Positions 1-9,068 of a stretch of 64,000 bases of DNA are shown here, piece by piece. This DNA is from an uncultured archaeon (lineage in GTDB: Archaea; Thermoplasmatota; Penumbrarchaeia; JASLWR01): positions 64,001 to 128,000 of the forward strand of contig CAYSHM010000003.1 of assembly GCA_964430885.1 (NCBI GenBank), read 5' to 3'. A program made the position numbers and the translations under genes. Numbering within the stretch: the stretch's first letter is position 1; each line of letters begins with the position of its first letter. Under the pieces are notes generated by a model. The model was given only the letters and a program-made list of their open reading frames with translations. It was not told the DNA's origin and made no database searches.

Positions 1-618
1 AAGTGTTATTACCCAGAACCAAATGTAGGTTTCCCCTACAGGGATCCTTTTAAAACACTCATAGCCACTCTTCTTTCGGCACAATCTACGGATAAACAAA
101 CCGGACCCGCAGTGGAAAGTTTATTTGAACAATATCCGACCATTTCGGACATATCTTCGGCCGATATAAAGGATATTCAAGAGATAATAAGGTCCGTGGG
201 ACTTTTCAGGTCTAAAGCCAAATATGTAAAACTTACCGCTCAAAAACTAGTTGAAATTTTCAAATCGAGAGTCCCAGACACTATGGAGGAACTCACAGGT
301 CTTCCGGGTGTAGGAAGAAAGACTGCAAATTTAGTAATATCCAAGGCATTTTCTAAAAATGTTGGTATAGCAGTGGACACTCACGTATTCAGGATATCAA
401 GGAAGCTCGGCATAGCCAAGAGCTCTATCAGAGACAATGTTGAGAAAGAATTGATGTCCATATACCCCTCGGATGATTACTTGAACATCAACACATATTT
501 TATCAAACACGGCAGGAAGATTTGCACAGCAAGGAAACCAAAATGCGACATCTGTCCCCTGAACGAACTATGTGAATACTATAGTAAAAGTTCAAGCTGC
601 TCTTTCAGCACCTCGTAG
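1..618 (+). CDS. nth: Endonuclease III (HhH-GPD glycosylase/AP lyase), 5'-truncated by window edge
   Basis: Frame is open from base 1 (KCYYPEPNVGFPYRDPFKTLIATLLSAQSTD). HhH LPGVGRKTA, catalytic VDTHV, 4Fe-4S motif C-x6-C-x2-C-x5-C. Confidence 0.95.
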   Translation, partial: KCYYPEPNVGFPYRDPFKTLIATLLSAQSTDKQTGPAVESLFEQYPTISDISSADIKDIQEIIRSVGLFRSKAKYVKLTAQKLVEIFKSRVPDTMEELTGLPGVGRKTANLVISKAFSKNVGIAVDTHVFRISRKLGIAKSSIRDNVEKELMSIYPSDDYLNINTYFIKHGRKICTARKPKCDICPLNELCEYYSKSSSCSFSTS

Positions 619-1211
619 GAGGCCATACCTCCTCTGCCGCCATCATCCGTAGTGGTGAAATATCTGATAATGCCATCCTCATCAAGTATATATATGGTGG
701 GGATCAATCTCACATCATAAGTGCTTGCCACAGTTGAGGTTTTTGCTGCAAAACGCCAACTGGCTCCATGGGCCTCCTTTACATTCCCTCTAATCTGCTC
801 TGGGCTCTCAGCATCACTTACACCTAAAGATAGTATCCTGACATTGCGGTTATAATACTCTTCATTGATTCGTTTCAACTCCCCCATTTCCTGGTGACAG
901 GGACTGCAGTAATCAGCCATGAAATCCAATATTACTATCTTCCCCTTGTAGTCACTCAGTGAGAACAGTTTACCGTCAATATCTGTCACCGTGAAATCAG
1001 GAGCCCAAAGTCCAATGTCGATACCTACATTGATATTGTCATTTCCTGATGAATCCTTGTATCGGGAAGGTGTATCCTGATCTCTATCGCTTATGACGAA
1101 ATAGACCAAACTGAACAATAGACCAAAAATAACAACCACAAATATACCATCAAATAGGTATTTTTTCGGTTTTTTCGTTGAATTAGATGACCCCTTTTTA
1201 TCTTTGGTCAA
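579..1211 (-). CDS. Membrane-anchored TlpA/ResA-type thiol-disulfide oxidoreductase (redoxin)
   Basis: One TM helix, APDFTVTDIDGK, CSPC active site, IPT cis-Pro loop. TTG start at 1211 after GAGGG is preferred to the ORF-track start at 1325. Confidence 0.85.
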   Translation of the reverse strand: MTKDKKGSSNSTKKPKKYLFDGIFVVVIFGLLFSLVYFVISDRDQDTPSRYKDSSGNDNINVGIDIGLWAPDFTVTDIDGKLFSLSDYKGKIVILDFMADYCSPCHQEMGELKRINEEYYNRNVRILSLGVSDAESPEQIRGNVKEAHGASWRFAAKTSTVASTYDVRLIPTIYILDEDGIIRYFTTTDDGGRGGMASYEVLKEQLELLL

Positions 1212-1472
1212 TTCAATCCCTCTTGTAACGATAATAATAATAATATACCAACTAAACTGAAGGGTAAAGGAAATAATAGACCATAAAGATAGTCCTGATA
1301 ATATCCATTTCGGCAATAAAATCATGAATAGACTGCCGATTGTTTATACAATGATACCTCCAGGGAGACATATGCAATTCACTGATACATATCAAGCTGA
1401 TAGATGAATTGATTCTTCTAAGCATTATTTAACAAATGCCAGGGATTCGTTTCAAACTGCTTGCTCAATGGT

Positions 1473-2039
1473 TCAGCTGAAAACTGTTTCAAGCACAAAC
1501 TCAATCTCGATCTCACCTGGAATACACCCGAGTGATGAAGCGGTAATTATAGGGGTCAAGGTTTCTTCGACAGATTTAAGGGTGGTCTTGGCAACACCGT
1601 TCTTACACATTACATCCCTCTCAAAAAGAACGCCGCCTGTGGTCCTGAAGGTTATCATCCCATCAAAATGCGTCATAAGGGATCCGTTATGATCACGAAC
1701 GCTTGCGGTTATTGCACACTGGTCCTTTCCATTGGCGATGATCTCAGGTATTCCATTCCCATCCTTGTCCGCCGCATCGGTCTTGATCTGTATAAATGGT
1801 TTGGCCGGTTTCCTATCAATGGATTCAGGTTTCCCAGATTTATTGAAAATGAGATGATAGGCCCAGAGCTGATTCGCTATTGAAGCATCATTGGGAGTGA
1901 AGAAATAATTCACATCGGAGGGCGCGTTTTCAGGATATGAGCTCTGGAAAGTCGGTTCTTTTACCTTCCCCGAACTGTCGTTCATAAGCATTGATACGCC
2001 CACAATCTGTCGGGTATTCTTGTTGTAAAATATGATCAT
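1473..2039 (-). CDS. Hypothetical protein with C-terminal Big_1/invasin-type Ig domain; third gene of tail-like operon
   Basis: ANGKDQCAITASVRD..G...ITFRTTGG....NGVAKTTLKS resembles Big_1. GGAGG precedes ATG 2039. Confidence 0.6.
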   Translation of the reverse strand: MIIFYNKNTRQIVGVSMLMNDSSGKVKEPTFQSSYPENAPSDVNYFFTPNDASIANQLWAYHLIFNKSGKPESIDRKPAKPFIQIKTDAADKDGNGIPEIIANGKDQCAITASVRDHNGSLMTHFDGMITFRTTGGVLFERDVMCKNGVAKTTLKSVEETLTPIITASSLGCIPGEIEIEFVLETVFS

Positions 2040-2050
2040 TTTAATTCCTC

Positions 2051-2527
2051 CTAGGCTACCCCTATGGCAATCCAATTGACAATTCCGTTCTTCTCACCAT
2101 TTCGGGACTGAGCAAATATCCTGAAGCCTTGGGATGAAATATCATGTGGATAGCAAATGATATTAGTTTTTCCTTCTGGTTCATCAACAGTCCCGCTCAA
2201 GGATAACATAACATGCGGCTTAACATCCCAGTTCAATTCGACATATCCCCCGTGGGATGCGATACCCGACGAAAGCATGGTTGAAGATTTATCACCCAAT
2301 TCCTCCATGGCATAGATTATTCCCATTATATCGTCCTTTATCTCCTCCTGCATCTCGTTCCAATCCTCGGAAAGAATTATGTCTCCAGCTTCCTTTATTC
2401 GGGGTTCAAAGTCTGAATCGACCATCCCTGGACCTGTTTTCTTCTTTTTGGAAATGGTTGCTACTTCGATCTTCTTTTCCTTGTCACCGTCGGAAATTAC
2501 TATCTTAGGGGCTTTTTTCTTGGCCAA
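2051..2527 (-). CDS. Tail-fibre-like protein with C-terminal H-type-lectin/gp53-like domain
   Basis: KEAGDIILSEDWNEMQ motif. C-terminal KPHVMLS...ISSQGFRI...VNWIAIG pattern is typical of fibre-tip domains. AGGAGG precedes the TTG. Confidence 0.55.
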   Translation of the reverse strand: MAKKKAPKIVISDGDKEKKIEVATISKKKKTGPGMVDSDFEPRIKEAGDIILSEDWNEMQEEIKDDIMGIIYAMEELGDKSSTMLSSGIASHGGYVELNWDVKPHVMLSLSGTVDEPEGKTNIICYPHDISSQGFRIFAQSRNGEKNGIVNWIAIGVA

Positions 2528-2538
2528 TCACATTCCTC

Positions 2539-3303
2539 CTAGAAAGTTATCTTCCAAATTAATGAAAGAGTCAATTTATCAGTTTTATTAATCTCTGGAA
2601 AGACCACTCTGTTGTACATGGTTCCTTCCCTCTCAGCATTGAATATACCCGCTTCGGAAATGGGAGCATTGCAATCCTCATATCCGAAGGTCGCACCCAG
2701 CGTCAGAGTTGTATCACTCCCGCTTTCCAGGGATGTTCTGGAAAGGTTTACCGGTATGGAGGATACGATTCTTTTTGCATACACAAGCTTCGAATCGGCT
2801 TCCAGTACCTTCTCCACATATTCCTTGTTTCGGGAATTCAAACTCAATTTCTTGAACTCTTCCTCCACAAATCCTTCGTCCGTCTCACCGTAAACATAGA
2901 GGTCAAAAACTTTGTCCGAAGACTTCTTAACCTCTACTGAAATAAAATTCCCCTGCTCTCCAGATAACTTGGAAATTATCTTCAGAACGTCCTTTTTTGC
3001 AGCATCCTTCAATATGAGTGAAGCGCTTTCTTCTTCTTTCAGAAAGCTTTTATCGAAGGCCCGGCGGGGGGACATCTCTTTCTCAAGACCCTTGTCTGTG
3101 GACGAGGGGGTGGCTTTCCCGGTACCAACAGCCATATGGGACATGGGTTTATCTTCTTTACCGCTGAAAAGATCAGCAACATATTTCTTGCCTGATGACA
3201 CAATCAAATTCGGACTCTTGTACTCGTTAATTATATTACCGTCCTTATCACGCAGAATGATCGCTACATTGCCTTTCATATTCTGTTTCTCATCACATAC
3301 CAT
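2539..3303 (-). CDS. Phage/eCIS baseplate- or fibre-attachment-like protein with inserted sheath-like domain
   Basis: NLIVSSGKKYVADLF, SHMAVGTG..PSSTD..LEKE, N.PISEAGIFN, MYNRVVF..I.K....L...WKITF. ATG 3303 follows GGTGG; GTG 3312 is the alternative start. Confidence 0.65.
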   Translation of the reverse strand: MVCDEKQNMKGNVAIILRDKDGNIINEYKSPNLIVSSGKKYVADLFSGKEDKPMSHMAVGTGKATPSSTDKGLEKEMSPRRAFDKSFLKEEESASLILKDAAKKDVLKIISKLSGEQGNFISVEVKKSSDKVFDLYVYGETDEGFVEEEFKKLSLNSRNKEYVEKVLEADSKLVYAKRIVSSIPVNLSRTSLESGSDTTLTLGATFGYEDCNAPISEAGIFNAEREGTMYNRVVFPEINKTDKLTLSLIWKITF

Positions 3304-3660
3304 GGGGTCCACCTTGAAAATGATTCTATAATGCTATATTGATCCTAACACCAAACTTAAACCGTCATTATTTCTGACCAATATTCCATACTTTCTTCAT
3401 TCAATTCAGAGCCTGGGAAATTCATTCATCAAACCTATAATATATATAAAATCCAGACCCGGATAATAACTACACCGACTAGTGAATTAGTATATATGAT
3501 TTATCCTCTTTATGGTTACTTTTTAATAGAGGTACTCCGAAAAACATGATAAACAGAGGAATATAAATCTCATATGACCATTTTTAAAAAACTAGACCAT
3601 AACACCTAAAATACCTCATTGTTGACCCTATTTTATGGATCCTCATACGTCATTTTGTTT

Positions 3661-4185
3661 TCATCGAATATTGATTAAACATTTGATCCTTTCTGGCCCG
3701 TCAACAGATATAATTACTTCAGCGGTATCGGAAGGAACCATATTCATCCATTCTTCAGAAACACCCATCATTTTTCTGATTATTTCACCTTTATACTGTC
3801 CTCTTGAATAAAGATCAGGAGAATATATTGAATAATCCCTACGATGGAATAGGGTTCGGGTCAATTCTGAATTTGTAACCACAACATCGAAAGGAGGAAC
3901 GAGGTCTTCAATATGCGATACCCAGACATTATATCGGTTAATATCATCCACGCCTGTTAAAAAAATCTTGGATTGCCATTTCTCCGGCAATGATCGTTTG
4001 ATCATAAGCATCCTTTCTCCGCATGTAAAGGGATTCTTGGGTGTGAAACTTTGCCTGGAAGATCCTATGCAAATTATTAGATATTGGACATCATGAATTA
4101 TCTCTTGGATTATGGAAAAATGCCCTTTATGGAATGGTTGGAATCGGCCTATGAGCAATGCCCTCTTTCCTGCTACTTTTGTCAC
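3661..4185 (-). CDS. nadM: Nicotinamide-nucleotide adenylyltransferase (archaeal NadM)
   Basis: GRFQPFHKGH, IGSS, NPFTCGER. Confidence 0.92.
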   Translation of the reverse strand: MTKVAGKRALLIGRFQPFHKGHFSIIQEIIHDVQYLIICIGSSRQSFTPKNPFTCGERMLMIKRSLPEKWQSKIFLTGVDDINRYNVWVSHIEDLVPPFDVVVTNSELTRTLFHRRDYSIYSPDLYSRGQYKGEIIRKMMGVSEEWMNMVPSDTAEVIISVDGPERIKCLINIR

Positions 4186-4236
4186 CTGTTATCCCTCTAT
4201 TTGACCCACGGTTACTTTCGAATAGCTTTAATGATC

Positions 4237-5880
4237 CTAAATATATATTGTCCCTGATGTCTTGCATACCGGGCAGGATATTTGCTGTCTATCCATGGAT
4301 TTTTTTCCTTCTCTATCGTCCTTTATTACAATATCCACTATAAGAATCTCTTTGCAGTTTCCACATACCAGAGTCCTGTTCATCCCAGATTTATTTTCCT
4401 TTGGCTCTTTTCTTTTCAGTTCCTTTGAAAATTTCCTCATAGGCGCTTTTACAATGGGCAGTACTTTTTTCCACATGGGTTCTCCGAGGGAGATTGGCCG
4501 ATACGGCTGAACAACCAAGGGAAAATCCTCTTCTGATTCTTCGGTTATACCTTCCTTCTCTCTTTTTGTCTTGATATTGATGAAGCTCACATAACGGCCC
4601 GGGGTAGATGGTTTTCCTGAAGGAGTGTGTCTTTTTCTAGAGATGACAACAGATATTATCAATGATATTATCAGAATGGAAACCACAATGATTACCAATA
4701 GAATTATAATAAGCGTTATGAGGTCTAAACCCAGAAACCAATCCTTCATTGGATTGCGTTCTTCAGGTGCTGAAATCCCTTCGGAAATGGTTAAATTCAG
4801 AATAGCCGTGCTGGCAGACCCTATCTCATCCTCCACGATCAGTTTAATCCTGTATTTCGCTGGATAATCATACTTGAATGTCGGCGTTTCAACCTCTGAG
4901 TCTATCTTATTATCCCCGTCCAGATCCCATTTATAGCTCAGTACATCCTTTGGGTCCAGATCATAGGTCCCTCGGCAGGTAAAGAAAATAACCTCATCAA
5001 CATAATAGTTGCCCATCATGGGGTCTATTATTGCCACTGGAGGATGATTAGGTATTTCGATCATTATCTTTTTTGGAAATACGTTATAATTAACATTGCC
5101 TGCAATATCCATTGGAGCTATGGACAGATACCGTATATCACCTTCCTCCATTGAGAACAGCAGCAGTACGGGTGACCCCTCGATGGGTTCATCCGTATAA
5201 GGGGTTTCATCGCTGACATCGAATACCTCTGTTTTAGTGATAAAAATATAATAACCAACTGCTTCAGGAACCTCTGTAAATGAAACATCCATATCCTCAT
5301 CGCCTTCATAGTAGGTTGTGATATTGAACGGTGATTCAGGGGGTAGAATGTCATAGTCCCCGACTATGGTGTAAGTCCTGTTAAAGGAAACCTCCATTGA
5401 TCCCATATCTATGAGCAATGTGGCATTTTCAAAATCCAATTGGCCTCCTTCCATCTCCACTGGTATTCCTTGGATAACCTCTGCAAATCCCAAAGTATCA
5501 AGATCGAATTCGGCTACTATTTTTTCGCTCTCATATTCAAAGGTATAGCTCATGGTTATATTTAGATAATCCTCTGTGGTCGAGGATATGTTGAAGAAAA
5601 ATCCCAGGGTATTATCGTCAAATGAACCCCCAGTATCAAGAGGAGAAGGGACCTCTTCAATTTTAAGAGCACTCTGTGAAGAACCATTGAAAAAAATATC
5701 AATAACAAAATCCTCACCTATCCAAGTGACCACATTCTCCAATGGAACGCTTCGTCTAGAATCGAAGGCGGTATAGCATTGACAGTGCGGACCTGTATAA
5801 GTTAAGCATAAAGAGATAAGAATTAAAAATGTGATTAAGCCCCGCGGTACAATTTGCCCCTGATAAATATTTAAGTACAC
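4237..5880 (-). CDS. Secreted single-pass membrane protein with PKD domain and cytoplasmic zinc ribbon
   Basis: Signal peptide, NHPPVA...YKWDLDGD PKD domain, long TM, C-terminal CGNC...CPVC. Confidence 0.75.
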   Translation of the reverse strand: MYLNIYQGQIVPRGLITFLILISLCLTYTGPHCQCYTAFDSRRSVPLENVVTWIGEDFVIDIFFNGSSQSALKIEEVPSPLDTGGSFDDNTLGFFFNISSTTEDYLNITMSYTFEYESEKIVAEFDLDTLGFAEVIQGIPVEMEGGQLDFENATLLIDMGSMEVSFNRTYTIVGDYDILPPESPFNITTYYEGDEDMDVSFTEVPEAVGYYIFITKTEVFDVSDETPYTDEPIEGSPVLLLFSMEEGDIRYLSIAPMDIAGNVNYNVFPKKIMIEIPNHPPVAIIDPMMGNYYVDEVIFFTCRGTYDLDPKDVLSYKWDLDGDNKIDSEVETPTFKYDYPAKYRIKLIVEDEIGSASTAILNLTISEGISAPEERNPMKDWFLGLDLITLIIILLVIIVVSILIISLIISVVISRKRHTPSGKPSTPGRYVSFINIKTKREKEGITEESEEDFPLVVQPYRPISLGEPMWKKVLPIVKAPMRKFSKELKRKEPKENKSGMNRTLVCGNCKEILIVDIVIKDDREGKKSMDRQQISCPVCKTSGTIYI

Positions 5881-5984
5881 TGGAACTACCTCTTATTGAA
5901 TTAGCATCATTTCCAATAGGAATTCGCGAAGTTATTCCTACTGCGTCATATATCCCCTGAATCTCCGAAATGGTCATCTGCTCT

Positions 5985-8900
5985 TTATGAATATCTTCCG
6001 CCGGACCATCCATCGTCAGAATCCTCATCGTCCCAGGAATCCCCATCCTCCCACTCGTCCGATTCTAAATCATCGTATTTGCCATATCTTTCATAGTCCT
6101 TGTCTTCAATATCTTCCATTTCTTTATATGACGGTTTGTAAAAATCATCCGAAGCCCCGCCACCATAAGTCCTCCTATCGGATTCCTGACGTTTCTTCTG
6201 CCTTCCTATAATATCCTCTTTTTCCGATATGCGGTCCTCAACCTCCACCAAACGATCCCTCAACTCGCCGAGCTTATTCCTATATGTATGCTTCAGCCTA
6301 TTATATCTCGCCTGGGATATATATTCATCATCGTAATCCCATTCAACCTGGTCAAGCTTCCCCTTGACCCTGTCAATATCCTGCAGTATCTCCTCTCTTT
6401 CCTCTTCAAGCATTACCAGTTCATCCGCAATCTTTCTCTTCAGTTTTGATCTCTTCACTTCCATGAAGAACCACAATATCAGGAGAATTGCAACACCTAT
6501 TACCAGAAATGCTATTGAAGAGATGTAAATCGACTCCAAATCTTTCTCTGATTCTGTCAGGTCATCATCCCCGTCATCGTTATCATCATCGGAGCCGTTA
6601 TTGTCTGGAACATTAACCTTGGAGATGTTTAGAATAATTGTCCTAGTATCCCTGGAACCATCCTTGTCCTTCACCGTCAATTGAACCTGGAATTTTCCGG
6701 ATTTCGAATAAGAATGGTTCAATTGCATGCCAACATCGCCGTTCCCATCTCCGAAATCCCATTCATATATCAATTGGGAATTGTACTCCCCTGGTTTCAG
6801 GTCGGGATCAAAGCTTCCTTCTGCCGAGAAATTGATTAAATCGCCGACCTTGAATTCGGACTGGGCAGGCTGGGTCAGAACCGCGATACAATTCCGGTTG
6901 ATATTGCCCACATCAAAGTTCCAGGTATGCGAAACCAAATCTTTTCCGTCTGACGCCCTAACCATGATGGTATGGTCTCCGCTGGAATTATAATCTGCTT
7001 TGTAAATGTAATTATTTGTTGTAATGTTCTGCTCCAGGCCATCCCGGAACCATGTGTATTCCAGCACGTCCCCGTCCTCATCCTCGCAGGTCAGCACAAA
7101 TTCCCAGCTCTCATTCTCATTCATACTGATCATCGATGCCGGGGAAACATCAACTATCACAGGTGGCTGATTTACGTTGACCACGCTTATGTTCCATTCA
7201 ATGCTGTTTTTGGTAAAATGACCCAAAGTAGCTTCATCGATGACGATGCACCTCACCTTGAATGGTGAATTTATACTGGACATTTCACCCGTATATTCTG
7301 TTGAAAAGGTATAATCCATCATACTAATGTTTCTCTGGACAAGTTCATAATTACCTCCATTTTCAAGATACCAGCTTGTGTTATATTCCGAGAACGGGGT
7401 TTGATTGAGCTCAATGAACAATAACTGGCTTTCACCTTCGTTGAGAGTAATGTTCTCTTCGTCAGGTCCGTATCTTATTATTTCAGGAACTGGTCTTGGC
7501 AGAATATCATATTCCACCACAACATTGTTGTTTGTTTCGAAAGTCTCATTGATCAATTCTTCGGGATCAAGTGTGAAGTTGAAATGATGCAGTCCCAAAG
7601 GTGGAACTGATTCGAACTGGAACTCGCAAATTGCTGTGGACATCGGGCAAAGGGTCACATTCTTGATTTGCGTTACTTGGATCTCTTCATGGACCGCAGA
7701 TACCCTGGCATTTTCCAAAAATGTCAATGAAGGGTTGTTGAGCTCAACGGTAATATTGAATGGAGAGTTCAATGCCGCCCCGGATCCTGGTGAAAAAGAG
7801 ACATTCTCATCAAATATCCTTATGTCAGGTCTTGCCACTGTCAGAGTTTTGATCTCATACAACTCGAAATCGTTAACCATCACTATAACGCCGTGGGACC
7901 CAATATCACATTCACATGGCGTCTCGTCACTTGTCCCTCCAATGAATATTCTCTGATCAAAGCTTCCATTACTGATAGGAATTTCTTCGGACATGTTGAG
8001 TTTCGGAATAATAACAGTGACGGCATCGGATTCAACTCCCATCATGCTTCCTGCTAGGTCCCAGGAACTCTCAGGTGGAATACCAAATGGCATATCCTGA
8101 GTGATATCGTCCCCCAAGGAAAAATCACCTACATCATATGATGTCAGTTCTATACTGCCTTCATCTATACCGATTACAAGATCGGGCAGTTCCAGATAAT
8201 TGCCAGAATTAACTTCGGTGAAGACCACATTCCTAGCATCACCAGAGTAATAACGGACCTGTTCCCCATTCTCAAAATCCAATGAGTAGGTATTAAAATA
8301 TTCTCCTGCGGTATCCTGGACCTCTGTGCCGACGCAGCTTACGGAATTTGATAATAATTGGTTGGTAGTGTTCGTGAAATTCTCACCTGCTATATCTCCT
8401 GACATGTCGGCTTCACGGGTATAGGTCTGATTCCATTCCTCCCCAACTATAAGCGGAAAATCATAATCCTCCAGAGACGCGTCAAAGGTTACATTCTGGG
8501 TCATGTTATAGGTCAATTCGAAATTATCAAAAAAGGAGGTGACGTTGATTATTCCGTTATGAGATTCGGTAATTTTATAGAGCGAAAGATCATCAACACA
8601 CCAGTACTCCATCCCTGAATTATCAGCCACTACTTGAGCGCTCATTAGAGCCCCAGTCATGAAAATATCATAGGTGCCTGTGAAGTTCACCCTGTAGCAA
8701 ATATTATTCCAAGTTCCCATATCAATTGTTTCGATTCCGACAACCGTGTAATCCATATTTCCTGTCAGCGTCCCAGTCAAACTAATGGGATTCCCTTCAT
8801 AATAATAGGTGCCAGTTATATCCATGTCAGTATAATAGCTCCAAGTATCATTAAACAGTAAAGTAGGTACGTCCAGGTAATCAGGCATGCAATCGGCCCT

Positions 8901-9068
8901 GGAATCCGATTCCGAATTTGATGTTGACTTCGGACCCTGGGAGATGGGATGTATTACTGCTGGAACCAATTTATCCAAGTTGATCATAATACTACTCAAT
9001 GAAAGGAAGGATAGGCCGAAAACCATCATCATTGAGAATATAACCGATAGGAGCTTACTCGTTTTCAT
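5985..9068 (-). CDS. Large surface protein (beta-rich domain, CARDB, Ig, PKD) with TM, coiled coil and acidic tail
   Basis: Signal peptide, DPEELINETFETNN (CARDB), YEWDFGDG (PKD), TM, heptad-rich cytoplasmic region. Confidence 0.8.
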   Translation of the reverse strand: MKTSKLLSVIFSMMMVFGLSFLSLSSIMINLDKLVPAVIHPISQGPKSTSNSESDSRADCMPDYLDVPTLLFNDTWSYYTDMDITGTYYYEGNPISLTGTLTGNMDYTVVGIETIDMGTWNNICYRVNFTGTYDIFMTGALMSAQVVADNSGMEYWCVDDLSLYKITESHNGIINVTSFFDNFELTYNMTQNVTFDASLEDYDFPLIVGEEWNQTYTREADMSGDIAGENFTNTTNQLLSNSVSCVGTEVQDTAGEYFNTYSLDFENGEQVRYYSGDARNVVFTEVNSGNYLELPDLVIGIDEGSIELTSYDVGDFSLGDDITQDMPFGIPPESSWDLAGSMMGVESDAVTVIIPKLNMSEEIPISNGSFDQRIFIGGTSDETPCECDIGSHGVIVMVNDFELYEIKTLTVARPDIRIFDENVSFSPGSGAALNSPFNITVELNNPSLTFLENARVSAVHEEIQVTQIKNVTLCPMSTAICEFQFESVPPLGLHHFNFTLDPEELINETFETNNNVVVEYDILPRPVPEIIRYGPDEENITLNEGESQLLFIELNQTPFSEYNTSWYLENGGNYELVQRNISMMDYTFSTEYTGEMSSINSPFKVRCIVIDEATLGHFTKNSIEWNISVVNVNQPPVIVDVSPASMISMNENESWEFVLTCEDEDGDVLEYTWFRDGLEQNITTNNYIYKADYNSSGDHTIMVRASDGKDLVSHTWNFDVGNINRNCIAVLTQPAQSEFKVGDLINFSAEGSFDPDLKPGEYNSQLIYEWDFGDGNGDVGMQLNHSYSKSGKFQVQLTVKDKDGSRDTRTIILNISKVNVPDNNGSDDDNDDGDDDLTESEKDLESIYISSIAFLVIGVAILLILWFFMEVKRSKLKRKIADELVMLEEEREEILQDIDRVKGKLDQVEWDYDDEYISQARYNRLKHTYRNKLGELRDRLVEVEDRISEKEDIIGRQKKRQESDRRTYGGGASDDFYKPSYKEMEDIEDKDYERYGKYDDLESDEWEDGDSWDDEDSDDGWSGGRYS

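What the first reader, a model, noticed from the sequence alone, without database searches (positions are those of the whole stretch)
1473..3303. Orphan contractile-injection-system / phage-tail tip module in an archaeal chromosome
Seen: three co-oriented genes with 11-nt gaps and SD motifs, flanked by housekeeping genes, with no integrase, capsid, portal or terminase in the window. Recognised by eye: gene 1 matches the NxIVxxG/SHMAVGTG/EAGxFN/RVVF/WxITF family found beside baseplate genes in tailed phages and eCIS loci. Gene 2 has a GDxIxSEDWN motif plus an H-lectin/gp53-like tip. Gene 3 ends in a Big_1 adhesin-like domain. Inference: this is the target-recognition part of a capsid-less tail machine (eCIS, tailocin or cytoplasmic CIS), with tube, sheath and baseplate encoded elsewhere. 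The intact ORFs suggest domestication rather than decay.
Basis: partly seen in the sequence, partly recalled or inferred. Interest (0 to 1): 0.72.

Follow-up and report, generated by a model that had tools for sequence, protein, structure and literature searches.

The report
Fibre module of scattered archaeal tail machine
Three small genes in a marine archaeon encode the fibre-and-adaptor end of a phage-tail-like injection device whose other parts (sheath, tube, spike, baseplate) lie scattered over five other places in the chromosome, an arrangement kept across several related archaeal families.

Summary
Three intact minus-strand genes (254, 158 and 188 aa) have 11-nt gaps and GGAGG sites and sit between housekeeping genes.

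- **Gene 1** belongs to viral family phrog_5417 and carries an inserted copy of a tail-sheath surface domain.
- **Gene 2** models as a helix plus a lectin or fibre-tip-like knob.
- **Gene 3** ends in a sub-threshold Big_1/Invasin_D3 domain.

The same genome holds five other small islands, each among housekeeping genes:
- a lone sheath
- a tail-chaperone-like gene
- tube–tape measure–hub
- spike–X–PAAR
- gp25–J–I

All 14 genes are single copy. No capsid, portal or terminase family was found.

In nine bacterial loci, homologues of gene 1 lie directly after the wedge protein I, and six of them show the contiguous order spike–gp25–J–I–gene 1. The archaeal islands therefore look like pieces of one former cluster.

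In a 251-genome phylum sample, the sheath occurs in nine genomes of one class. Full-length gene 1 occurs in seven of those nine and in none of the other 242. The triad evolves under strong purifying selection (dN/dS 0.07–0.11).

I read it as the target-binding module of a domesticated, head-less contractile machine with an unusual, conserved, dispersed gene layout. Function and assembly are untested.

The parts
2539..3303 (-). g1, 254 aa. Baseplate or fibre adaptor of family phrog_5417, with a ~105-residue inserted copy of the tail-sheath surface domain (about residues 90-198).
   Evidence: - phrog_5417 E 2.3e-24. The N-terminal 9-81 matches tail-fibre family phrog_4176 at 9.1e-6.
- Model pLDDT 90.7.
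- The insert matches the H. borinquense sheath 9ezm_A with Z 14.6, rmsd 2.6 and 104 residues aligned.
- The core matches an HFTV1 tail chain with Z 11.5 and a phi812 baseplate chain with Z 9.1.
- hhalign of the insert against this lineage's own sheath gives prob 97.3 and E 1.8e-11.
- Bacterial homologues lie directly after wedge protein I.
2051..2527 (-). g2, 158 aa, TTG start. Short fibre-like protein with a Lys-rich, low-confidence N-terminus, one long helix (53-80) and a C-terminal beta-sandwich knob (83-157).
   Evidence: - Model pLDDT 74.8.
- The 12 best VIA matches (Z 5.3-6.9) are all H-type lectins or phage and pyocin fibre or tailspike tips.
- Foldseek's best match is the SLL-2 lectin at E 5.1e-3, with none at 1e-3 or better.
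- Gp53-like_C scores 0.017 and 16.1 bits, below the 24.9 cut-off.
- WIAG-tail scores 0.02.
- The family is small: 13 representatives at E <= 1e-10 among 1.84 billion proteins.
1473..2039 (-). g3, 188 aa. N-terminal ~100 residues of unknown fold plus a C-terminal Ig-like (Big_1 / Invasin_D3-like) domain. Probably a second surface-binding or decoration protein.
   Evidence: - Invasin_D3 4e-6 (27.7 bits, cut-off 33) and Big_1 9.1e-6 (26.1 bits, cut-off 34.9).
- Homologues lie downstream of g1 in Bacteroidota and cyanobacterial clusters: L018 at 1.3e-27, and two copies in L016.
- The L018 homologue has the same sub-threshold domains.
- The nearest Atlas clusters score 0.92-0.95 and carry Invasin_D3/Big_1 in 10-33% of members.
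2528..2538 (-). 11-nt g1-g2 spacer containing AGGAGG.
   Evidence: Read directly from the sequence. An RNA-library contig spans 2436-2626 across this junction.
2040..2050 (-). 11-nt g2-g3 spacer containing GGAGG.
   Evidence: Read directly from the sequence.
3304..3660 (-). 357-nt AT-rich intergenic region upstream of g1. Presumed promoter region.
   Evidence: - No ORF of 50 aa or more on the minus strand here.
- An RNA-library contig covers 3189-3419.
- No motif shared with the upstreams of the other five islands beyond chance.

Best explanation
The three genes encode the outermost, target-binding layer of a phage-tail-like contractile machine. The rest of its genes are scattered over the chromosome.

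**Proposed roles (inferred)**
- g1 is an adaptor that docks on the baseplate wedge, next to the gpI-like protein. It has acquired a copy of the sheath's own surface domain.
- g2 is a short, probably trimeric fibre with a lectin-like knob.
- g3 is a small Ig-domain protein that binds or decorates.

**Other islands in the same genome**
- Sheath: C6:21001-22428.
- Chaperone-like gene with a frame-shifted extension: C32:16800-17505.
- Tube, tape measure and hub: C1:175850-181104.
- Spike, X and PAAR: C18:55763-57662.
- gp25, J and I: C12:63670-66845.

**Proposed mechanism (inferred, nothing assayed)**
1. The tube polymerises on the hub and spike, along the tape measure.
2. The sheath polymerises on gp25.
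3. The fibres bind a surface glycan or protein on a target.
4. The baseplate opens and the sheath contracts.
5. The PAAR-tipped spike and tube are driven through the target envelope.

Because fibres are present and no head genes were found, I favour a released tailocin or eCIS-like particle, at about 55% of this reading. A cell-anchored, T6SS-like mode, as in haloarchaea, remains possible.

**Shown**
- Gene identities at the stated strengths.
- The dispersed layout.
- Co-occurrence of the islands.
- Purifying selection on the triad.

**Inferred**
- Assembly into one machine.
- The role of each triad protein.
- The mode of action.
For: **1. Identity of the triad**
- Family scans.
- Models.
- Fold searches.
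- Of 46 viral models matching g1 at E <= 1e-3, the named ones are tail fiber, minor tail, tail protein and tail sheath.

**2. Other parts in the same genome, each between housekeeping genes**
- Sheath: PF04984 46.7 bits, above cut-off, and phrog_279 3e-29.
- gp25: phrog_975 3.5e-19.
- Baseplate_J: 1.5e-33.
- gpI-like: phrog_1160 1.3e-12.
- Spike: Phage_base_V 28.4 bits against a cut-off of 23.8. PAAR: 1.9e-18.
- Tape measure: phrog_15478 2.3e-6.
- Hub candidate: DNA_circ_N 0.0015 and phrog_184 0.0019.
- Tube candidate: its three PDB profile hits are all tube proteins, namely diffocin CD1364 at 0.0079, an XkdM-like protein at 0.0085 and XkdM at 0.52. Its Atlas neighbours carry tube families.
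- All 14 genes are single copy.

**3. Contiguous relatives**
- In 9 of the 33 bacterial loci (L016-L019, L022, L023, L028, L029, L039), the g1 homologue lies directly after an I homologue.
- 6 of these 9 also hold spike, gp25 and J in the order spike-gp25-J-I-g1.
- g3-like genes follow in 2 of them (L016, L018).
- Pfam confirms GPD hub, base_V, sheath initiator and Baseplate_J in L018 and L028.

**4. Co-occurrence in 41 relatives**
- Sheath and J occur in the same 9 genomes.
- Spike occurs in 8 of the 9, the chaperone in 8 of the 9, and g1 in 7 of the 9.
- Among the other 32 there is only one weak g1 hit (58 residues, 1.8e-4) and one weak chaperone hit with a stop codon.

**5. Co-occurrence in the phylum sample**
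- The sheath profile hits 9 of 251 genomes.
- Full-length g1 occurs in 7 of those 9 and in 0 of the other 242.

**6. Conserved dispersal**
- In G002, G003 and G014 the parts lie on different contigs.
- In G003, two parts share a contig but sit 51 kb apart.

**7. Selection**
- dN/dS between two orthologous triads is 0.087, 0.105 and 0.068.

**8. No head genes**
-.

**9. Published context**
- Passages of PMC12923769 say that eCIS fibre genes lie downstream of Tail_P2_I or Afp11/12 homologues in about 90% of cases.
- The same passages list H-lectin and Invasin_D3 among fibre domains.
Against: - No experiment or structure shows that these proteins assemble.
- g1 was not found in 2 of the 9 sheath-bearing genomes (G006, 89% complete; G007, 85% complete).
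- The tube query found only 4 of the 9.
- In G001 the J match is a 52-residue fragment, and in G007 it is weak at 23% identity.
- The tube, hub and chaperone assignments rest on weak scores (0.0019-0.0094).
- Pfam gp19 and DUF2001 gave no tube hit.
- No Phage_GPD was found, and no sheath terminator or cap.
- No ATPase was tested.
- The lectin-like fold of g2 has only middling scores (Z < 7), and no Foldseek hit reaches 1e-3.
- No shared upstream motif links the six islands.
- Divergent head genes could escape Pfam, as the tube did.
- The spike island lies on a contig of 50.7% G+C against 43.5% for the genome, in a metagenome-assembled genome.
Confidence: 0.68

Rival explanations
1. Same machine, different mode. 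It stays inside the cell, anchored to the membrane, and fires outward like the haloarchaeal T6SS-like CIS. The triad then serves anchoring or positioning rather than binding targets from outside.
For: - The sheath profile's best solved relative is the H. borinquense CIS sheath (9ezm_A, E 1.8e-12).
- The g1 insert's best fold match is the same chain.
- That system is membrane-bound and mediates contact-dependent killing (PMC11566945, abstract and passages).
- No lysis or release gene was identified here.
Against: - Lectin-tip fibres and Ig-like adhesin domains are typical of released particles that must find a target.
- None of g1, g2 or g3 shows an obvious transmembrane segment by eye. This was not tested with a predictor.
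- Homologues of the haloarchaeal membrane anchor were not searched for.
Confidence: 0.2
2. The triad is a phage-derived lectin and adhesin complex that now works on its own, for example in cell-surface attachment. Its co-occurrence with sheath and baseplate genes reflects only common ancestry in one clade.
For: - The triad is its own transcription unit, far from all other tail genes.
- It was not found in 2 of 9 sheath-bearing genomes.
- No shared promoter motif was found.
- Kin share genes, so co-occurrence within one clade is weak statistics.
Against: - The g1 family occurs in tail or baseplate gene contexts in every locus where context could be read.
- g1 carries a copy of this lineage's own sheath domain. 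That is hard to explain without contact with the tail.
- No signal peptide or anchor is evident by eye. This was not tested.
Confidence: 0.1
3. The islands are decaying remnants of one or more old proviruses, with no present function.
For: - The genes are of viral type.
- They are scattered and lack head genes, as eroded prophages do.
Against: - All 14 ORFs are intact and single copy.
- The triad, the gp25-J-I triplet and the sheath are conserved across five families: the sheath at 57-75% identity and the triad at 45-73%.
- dN/dS is 0.07-0.11.
- No integrase lies near any island.
Confidence: 0.03
4. It is a complete head-and-tail particle, either a gene-transfer-agent-like element or a virus with dispersed genes. 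Its capsid, portal and terminase are too divergent for the Pfam models used.
For: - The tube escaped Pfam.
- The sheath has no match in 50,697 phage records or by single-sequence PDB search.
- Divergent head genes could therefore be missed.
- Known alphaproteobacterial gene transfer agents also have dispersed loci. This is recalled; I saw only the search listing of PMC5721377.
Against: - Five head or packaging families gave nothing above cut-off in G000, and two of them nothing in G001 and G002 either.
- Large terminase is usually the most detectable viral hallmark.
- PAAR-tipped spikes fit protein injection devices.
Confidence: 0.07

Closest known systems
Haloarchaeal contractile injection system of Halogeometricum borinquense (T6SS-like; PMC11566945; sheath PDB 9ezm)
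   Same: - It is an archaeal contractile sheath machine.
- Its sheath is the best solved relative of this lineage's sheath (E 1.8e-12).
- Its sheath is also the best fold match of g1's inserted domain (Z 14.6).
- It has baseplate J, gp25, spike and PAAR-type parts.
   Different: - Its 14 structural genes sit in one plasmid-borne cluster of two sub-clusters (passages). Here the genes lie in six chromosomal islands.
- The spike here is a small gpV-like protein (225 aa).
- No Phage_GPD, DUF4255 or other cap was found.
- A tape measure is present here, but is reported missing there.
Contiguous spike-gp25-J-I-g1 clusters of Bacteroidota, Terriglobia and cyanobacteria (loci L017-L019, L023, L028, L029; uncharacterised)
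   Same: - They hold direct sequence homologues of spike (to 1.7e-33), gp25 (to 4e-21), J (to 1.6e-56), I (to 3.5e-18), g1 (to 1.6e-26) and g3 (to 1.3e-27), in one order.
   Different: - The clusters are contiguous.
- Their g1 is the short ~150-aa form without the sheath-domain insert.
- Their J and I are larger.
- Whether they are prophage tails, tailocins or eCIS was not determined, because only 10 kb of flank was held.
P2/Mu-type myovirus tails and R-type tailocins (gene order V-W-J-I-H-G; FI-FII-E/E'-T-U-D). The order is recalled, not tested.
   Same: - A small gpV-type spike.
- gp25/W, J and I, followed by fibre genes.
- A sheath, tube, chaperone with a frame-shifted extension, tape measure and hub set.
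- R2 pyocin fibre tips are among g2's fold matches.
   Different: - No heads.
- The genes are not clustered.
- The fibre function is split over three small proteins.
- The adaptor carries a sheath domain.
- The system is archaeal, vertically kept and single copy.
eCIS tail fibres with N-terminal baseplate-anchor (eBAP) domains (PMC12923769)
   Same: - Fibre genes lie downstream of Tail_P2_I or Afp11/12 homologues.
- H-lectin, SLL-lectin and Invasin_D3 appear among the binding domains (passages).
   Different: - Here the anchor (g1) and the binding parts (g2, g3) are separate proteins.
- Whether g1 corresponds to any eBAP domain was not tested. The supplementary profiles were not opened.
- Cluster-based eCIS detection, as described there, would not score a dispersed system.

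Membership tests
Contractile injection systems / contractile phage-tail-like machines | Contractile sheath protein | tested here: met
   PF04984 at 46.7 bits (cut-off 31.4). Phage_sheath_1C at 32.3 bits (cut-off 26.9). phrog_279 at 3.1e-29. Located at C6:21001-22428, not in the window.
Contractile injection systems / contractile phage-tail-like machines | Inner tube protein | tested here: inconclusive
   - Pfam gp19 and DUF2001 gave no hit.
- A 133-aa candidate lies directly before the tape measure.
- A profile of its 7 homologues hits only tube proteins in the PDB, at E 0.0079, 0.0085 and 0.52.
- phrog_365 tail protein scores 0.0028.
Contractile injection systems / contractile phage-tail-like machines | Baseplate core: gp25-like sheath initiator and Baseplate J | tested here: met
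   - Baseplate_J scores 116.5 bits (cut-off 21.1).
- gp25 is below the Pfam cut-offs (24.2 bits for GPW_gp25, 27.2 for Sheath_initiator), but phrog_975 scores 3.5e-19.
Contractile injection systems / contractile phage-tail-like machines | Central spike with PAAR tip | tested here: met
   Phage_base_V at 28.4-29.9 bits (cut-off 23.8). PAAR_motif at 66.9 bits (cut-off 27).
Contractile injection systems / contractile phage-tail-like machines | Genes in one cluster or operon, as in all described eCIS, tailocins and the haloarchaeal CIS | tested here: not met
   There are six islands on six contigs, each flanked by housekeeping genes. The same holds in relatives.
eCIS in the strict (Afp/PVC-like) sense | DUF4255/Pvc16 cap, AAA+ ATPase and a large VgrG-type spike (Phage_GPD) | tested here: inconclusive
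   - Pvc16_N gave no hit, but the control genomes were silent too.
- Phage_GPD gave no hit while its controls did ring.
- An ATPase was not tested.
Integrated provirus | Capsid, portal, large terminase and integrase near the tail genes | tested here: not met
   - No match above cut-off for PF05065, PF03237, PF17289, PF03354 or PF04860.
- There is a single tyrosine recombinase, at C18:199-684, 55 kb from the spike island.
- Divergent genes could be missed.
phrog_5417 (g1) | Full-length match to the family profile | tested here: met
   E 2.3e-24 and 87 bits, covering profile positions 9-156 of 156 and interrupted by the insert. It is the only match in the genome.
Gp53-like_C / H-type lectin tip (g2) | Sequence match above Pfam's cut-off | tested here: not met
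   - Gp53-like_C scores 16.1 bits against a cut-off of 24.9.
- No H-lectin family is listed at E <= 1.
- Fold resemblance only: Z 5.3-6.9 and a Foldseek best of 5.1e-3.
Big_1 / Invasin_D3 (g3 C-terminus) | Sequence match above Pfam's cut-off | tested here: inconclusive
   - Big_1 scores 26.1 bits (cut-off 34.9) and Invasin_D3 27.7 bits (cut-off 33), with E of 4e-6 to 9e-6.
- The same pair of domains appears in the L018 homologue and in Atlas neighbours.

The most novel reading that the evidence does not exclude
A clade of Thermoplasmatota has turned a Mu/P2-like contractile tail into a vertically inherited cellular device of at least 14 single-copy genes. These were broken at module boundaries into about six chromosomal islands. 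It would be the first dispersed contractile injection system, invisible to cluster-based searches. Its fibre adaptor has copied the sheath's own surface domain.
Probability: 0.55. Interest if true: 0.85.

Novelty: new variant of a known kind. Interest (0 to 1): 0.77.

Why it matters
**Detection.** As I understand current practice, contractile injection systems are found by looking for gene clusters. The eCIS survey I read identifies loci by scoring clusters (PMC12923769, passages). A system whose parts are scattered yet conserved would mean such surveys undercount them, especially in uncultured archaea.

**Evolution.** It would give a clear example of how far a viral tail can be absorbed into a host chromosome. 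The closest parallel I can recall is gene transfer agents.

**Ecology.** It points to a possible weapon or delivery device in an abundant marine archaeal group, where almost nothing is known about cell-cell antagonism.

**Structure.** A sheath domain inserted in a fibre adaptor is an unusual domain transfer within one machine.

**Literature searched.** Four full-text searches found no paper describing a dispersed system or one in this lineage:
- "contractile injection" with "Thermoplasmatota"
- "tail sheath" with "Thermoplasmata"
- "eCIS" with "archaea" and "Thermoplasmat"
- "contractile injection system" with "scattered" and "archaea"

Subscription journals are not covered.

Tried and rejected
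**Sequence and collection searches with no useful result**
- Single-sequence PDB search with g1: only chance hits, E > 0.8.
- g1 against 50,697 phage records: two partial hits in Achromobacter phages, both annotated hypothetical.
- Sheath against the phage records, and single-sequence against the PDB: no match.
- Sheath protein, then the sheath alignment, against IMG/VR viral contigs: no relative.
- Pairwise BLASTP of g1 against the genome's own sheath: not significant. Only the profile comparison shows the relationship.

**Apparent hits judged to be chance**
- The Pfam gp19 hit at C2:103220 lies in the acidic tail of a surface protein.
- The sub-threshold capsid and terminase hits lie inside 811- to 1653-aa ORFs.

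**Shared upstream motif**
- The best 10-mer (1 mismatch) and 12-mer (2 mismatches) occurred in 3 of the 6 upstream regions.
- 25 random sets of AT-rich regions gave 2 to 5.
- There is no evidence for a common promoter element.

**Complex prediction**
- The job used g1 x3 with g2 residues 1-75 x3.
- It returned no answer (score 0.00), which is neither support nor evidence against binding.

**Chaperone frameshift**
- I saw no canonical slippery heptamer at the chaperone overlap.

**RNA libraries**
- Five short contigs (155-231 bases) from two seawater metatranscriptome runs of one study lie on window 1-6000.
- One spans the g1/g2 junction (2436-2626). One covers the g1 start and 116 nt upstream (3189-3419).
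- The tool warns that DNA may be present in such libraries, so this is at most a weak hint of transcription.
- A third run from the same study held nothing.

**Not done**
- L005 (C3:44001-64000) was fetched but not analysed.
As a result the tube, hub, X279, chaperone and g3 N-terminus were not folded, and the window's other genes were not scanned.
Full report
**What is in the window**

Searches show three co-oriented minus-strand genes:
- g1, 2539-3303, 254 aa, ATG after GGTGG.
- g2, 2051-2527, 158 aa, TTG after AGGAGG.
- g3, 1473-2039, 188 aa, ATG after GGAGG.

Each pair is separated by exactly 11 nt. The mechanical ORF list gives longer frames for g1 and g3. The shorter starts match the ribosome-binding sites and the homologue lengths.

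The neighbours are ordinary:
- An NMN-adenylyltransferase-like gene lies upstream.
- A thioredoxin-like ORF and an endonuclease-III-like ORF lie downstream. I named these two by eye only.
- There is no tRNA within 12 kb.
- The genome's single tyrosine-recombinase match is on another contig.

**What the three proteins look like: g1**
- It matches viral family phrog_5417 (function unknown) at E 2.3e-24.
- Its N-terminal 70 residues match a tail-fibre family at 9.1e-6.
- Its middle weakly matches a tail-sheath family at 7e-4.
- The alignment shows a ~150-residue core, found alone in many bacteria, interrupted by a ~105-residue insert.
- The model is confident (pLDDT 90.7).
- The insert (residues 90-198) superposes on the protruding domain of tail sheaths. 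The best match is the Halogeometricum borinquense CIS sheath 9ezm_A, with Z 14.6, rmsd 2.6 and 104 residues aligned. Next is phiCD508 with Z 11.9.
- The core matches a chain of the HFTV1 tail (Z 11.5, 127 residues), a 176-residue chain of the phi812 baseplate (Z 9.1) and the GP4 fibre-tail adaptor (Z 7.3). I could not tell from the papers which phi812 or HFTV1 protein those chains are.
- A profile comparison shows the insert is homologous to residues 90-178 of this lineage's own sheath (prob 97.3, E 1.8e-11).

**What the three proteins look like: g2 and g3**
- g2 is a small family, with 13 representatives at E <= 1e-10 in 1.84 billion proteins.
- Its model (pLDDT 74.8) has a poorly defined Lys-rich N-terminus, one long helix and a beta-sandwich knob.
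- The knob's 12 best matches are all H-type lectins or phage and pyocin fibre tips, but only at Z 5.3-6.9.
- Foldseek gives nothing at 1e-3 or better.
- g3 ends in an Ig-like domain with sub-threshold Big_1 and Invasin_D3 matches.
- The N-terminal half of g3 is unexplained.

**The rest of the machine is elsewhere in the genome**

The window is C3:64001-128000 of a 3.13-Mb, 44-contig, 91.6%-complete assembly. Family searches of the whole genome, followed by inspection of flanks, gave five further islands.

- **(A) Sheath.** A lone sheath gene at C6:21001-22428 lies between a giant AglB-type protein and a radical-SAM gene.
- **(B) Chaperone-like gene.**
  - It is a 170-aa gene at C32:16800-17312.
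  - A 72-aa ORF overlaps its end in another frame. One relative encodes both parts as a single 265-aa ORF, which weakly matches a tail-assembly-chaperone family at 0.0094.
  - In four other families this gene sits right after the sheath.
- **(C) Tube, tape measure and hub, at C1:175850-181104.**
  - It holds a 133-aa tube candidate, a 1124-aa tape-measure protein (2.3e-6) and a 426-aa hub candidate (DNA_circ_N 0.0015; baseplate hub 0.0019).
  - It lies between ribosomal-protein genes and a NOG1 GTPase.
  - The tube profile's three PDB hits are all tube proteins.
- **(D) gp25, Baseplate J and a gpI-like wedge protein.** This island, at C12:63670-66845, lies between CTP synthase and a C25 peptidase.
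- **(F) Spike, X and PAAR.** At C18:55763-57662 lie a gpV-type spike, a 279-aa unknown protein and a PAAR protein.

All 14 genes are single copy.

These families gave nothing above cut-off: T4 gp19, DUF2001, Phage_GPD, HK97 capsid, Terminase_6N, Terminase_6C, TerL_ATPase and Phage_portal. Pvc16_N gave nothing either, but its controls were silent.

**Why the window triad belongs with them**

I ran the 14 proteins against all ORFs of the 33 bacterial loci that hold short g1 homologues.
- In 9 loci, the g1 homologue lies directly after a homologue of the wedge protein I.
- In 6 of those 9 (Bacteroidota, Terriglobia, Saprospiraceae and two Nostoc), the contiguous order is spike, gp25, J, I, g1.
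- g3-like genes follow in two loci, and a larger g2-like fibre follows in the Nostoc loci.
- Pfam confirms the hub, spike, sheath initiator and J assignments in two of these clusters.

The archaeal islands F, D and the window triad therefore read as one ancestral cluster cut at module boundaries.

The short g1 form also occurs at the tail tip of a podovirus-like prophage and a siphovirus-like prophage. That fits a general fibre-adaptor role.

**Distribution among 41 relatives**
- Sheath and J were found in the same 9 genomes. The J match is a short fragment in G001 and weak in G007.
- The spike occurs in 8 of the 9, the chaperone in 8, g1 in 7 and the tube query in 4.
- The other 32 genomes gave only two weak partial hits.

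**Distribution in the 251-genome phylum sample**
- The sheath profile hit 9 genomes, all of one class and from five families.
- Full-length g1 occurred in 7 of those 9 and in none of the other 242.
- Kin are not independent, so I treat this as consistent evidence rather than a statistical test.

**Layout and selection**
- The dispersed layout recurs in G002, G003 and G014.
- In all 5 archaeal loci with the triad, no other component lies beside it.
- dN/dS between two orthologous triads is 0.087, 0.105 and 0.068. Against the window copy, synonymous sites are saturated.
- Island G+C (0.435-0.513) is at or modestly above the genome mean of 0.435. The spike contig as a whole is 0.507.

**Reading**

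The best explanation is a head-less, domesticated contractile tail machine whose fibre module is the finding.

I favour a released tailocin or eCIS-like particle because fibres with lectin-like and Ig-like tips are present. A membrane-anchored mode, as in haloarchaea, is the main alternative (PMC11566945, abstract and passages).

Decay is very unlikely. A stand-alone adhesin role, or hidden head genes, cannot be excluded.

The complex prediction gave no answer. No common upstream motif was found. RNA-library contigs give only a weak hint of expression.

**Comparison and novelty**
- The parts are of known kinds.
- The unusual features are the conserved scattering of a full part-set in an archaeal chromosome and the sheath-domain insert in the adaptor.
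- Four full-text searches found no description of either.
- A sheath survey lists one Thermoplasmata sheath homologue, without gene context (PMC9230969, passages).
- An eCIS fibre catalogue reports that fibre genes lie downstream of Tail_P2_I or Afp11/12 homologues, and lists H-lectin and Invasin_D3 among fibre domains (PMC12923769, passages). Its supplements, which hold the anchor-domain profiles, were not opened.

**Earlier scan notes**

Notes on this genome describe it as a marine Thermoplasmatota archaeon. None concerns these genes.

Noticed in passing
G000 C32:16800-17505 (L065:9800-10505): The chaperone-like gene ends at TAA. A 72-aa ORF in the +1 frame overlaps its last 26 nt. In relative G005 both parts form one 265-aa ORF. 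This looks like a programmed frameshift of the gpG/GT type, but I saw no canonical slippery site.
   Followed up: partly
G000 C6:20061-21000 (L003:16061-17001): About 940 nt upstream of the lone sheath gene hold no ORF of 90 aa or more. That is unusually long for this compact genome. It could be a regulatory region or an RNA gene.
   Followed up: no
G000 C18:56459-57298 (L085:12459-13298): A 279-aa Pro/Ala/Met/Gly-rich protein with no family match sits between the spike and PAAR genes. It is conserved there in G002 and lies next to PAAR in G010. It could be a cargo or a spike-associated protein.
   Followed up: partly
G005 C59 (L068:3916-13126) and other G005 contigs: One relative has two tandem sheath-chaperone pairs, followed by a tube gene and a low-complexity tape-measure-like ORF. 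It also has six tube matches and a divergent third sheath (33% identity) on C260. This is either a more clustered ancestral state or several systems. The assembly has 980 contigs.
   Followed up: partly
g1 model against BFVD: Proteins of filamentous archaeal viruses (a Betalipothrixvirus protein and AFV1 ORF274) are among the significant fold matches to the g1 core (E 5.5e-9 and 3.9e-4). These viruses have no contractile tail.
   Followed up: no
window 4237-5880 and 5985-9068 (minus strand): There are two large membrane-anchored surface proteins here. One ends in a Cys-rich zinc-ribbon-like tail and the other in a long acidic tail. I read this by eye. Earlier scan notes on this genome describe such proteins.
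   Followed up: no
G000 contig C18 (61 kb): The contig with the spike island has 50.7% G+C against 43.5% for the genome. Spike homologues in 8 of 9 related genomes argue against mis-binning, but the contig deserves a check.
   Followed up: partly
protein P0021: A full-length long-form g1 homologue (46% identity) is labelled by its source as [Eubacterium] cellulosolvens. All other long forms with context are from Thermoplasmatota archaea. It may be a mislabelled or contaminating contig, or a transfer.
   Followed up: no
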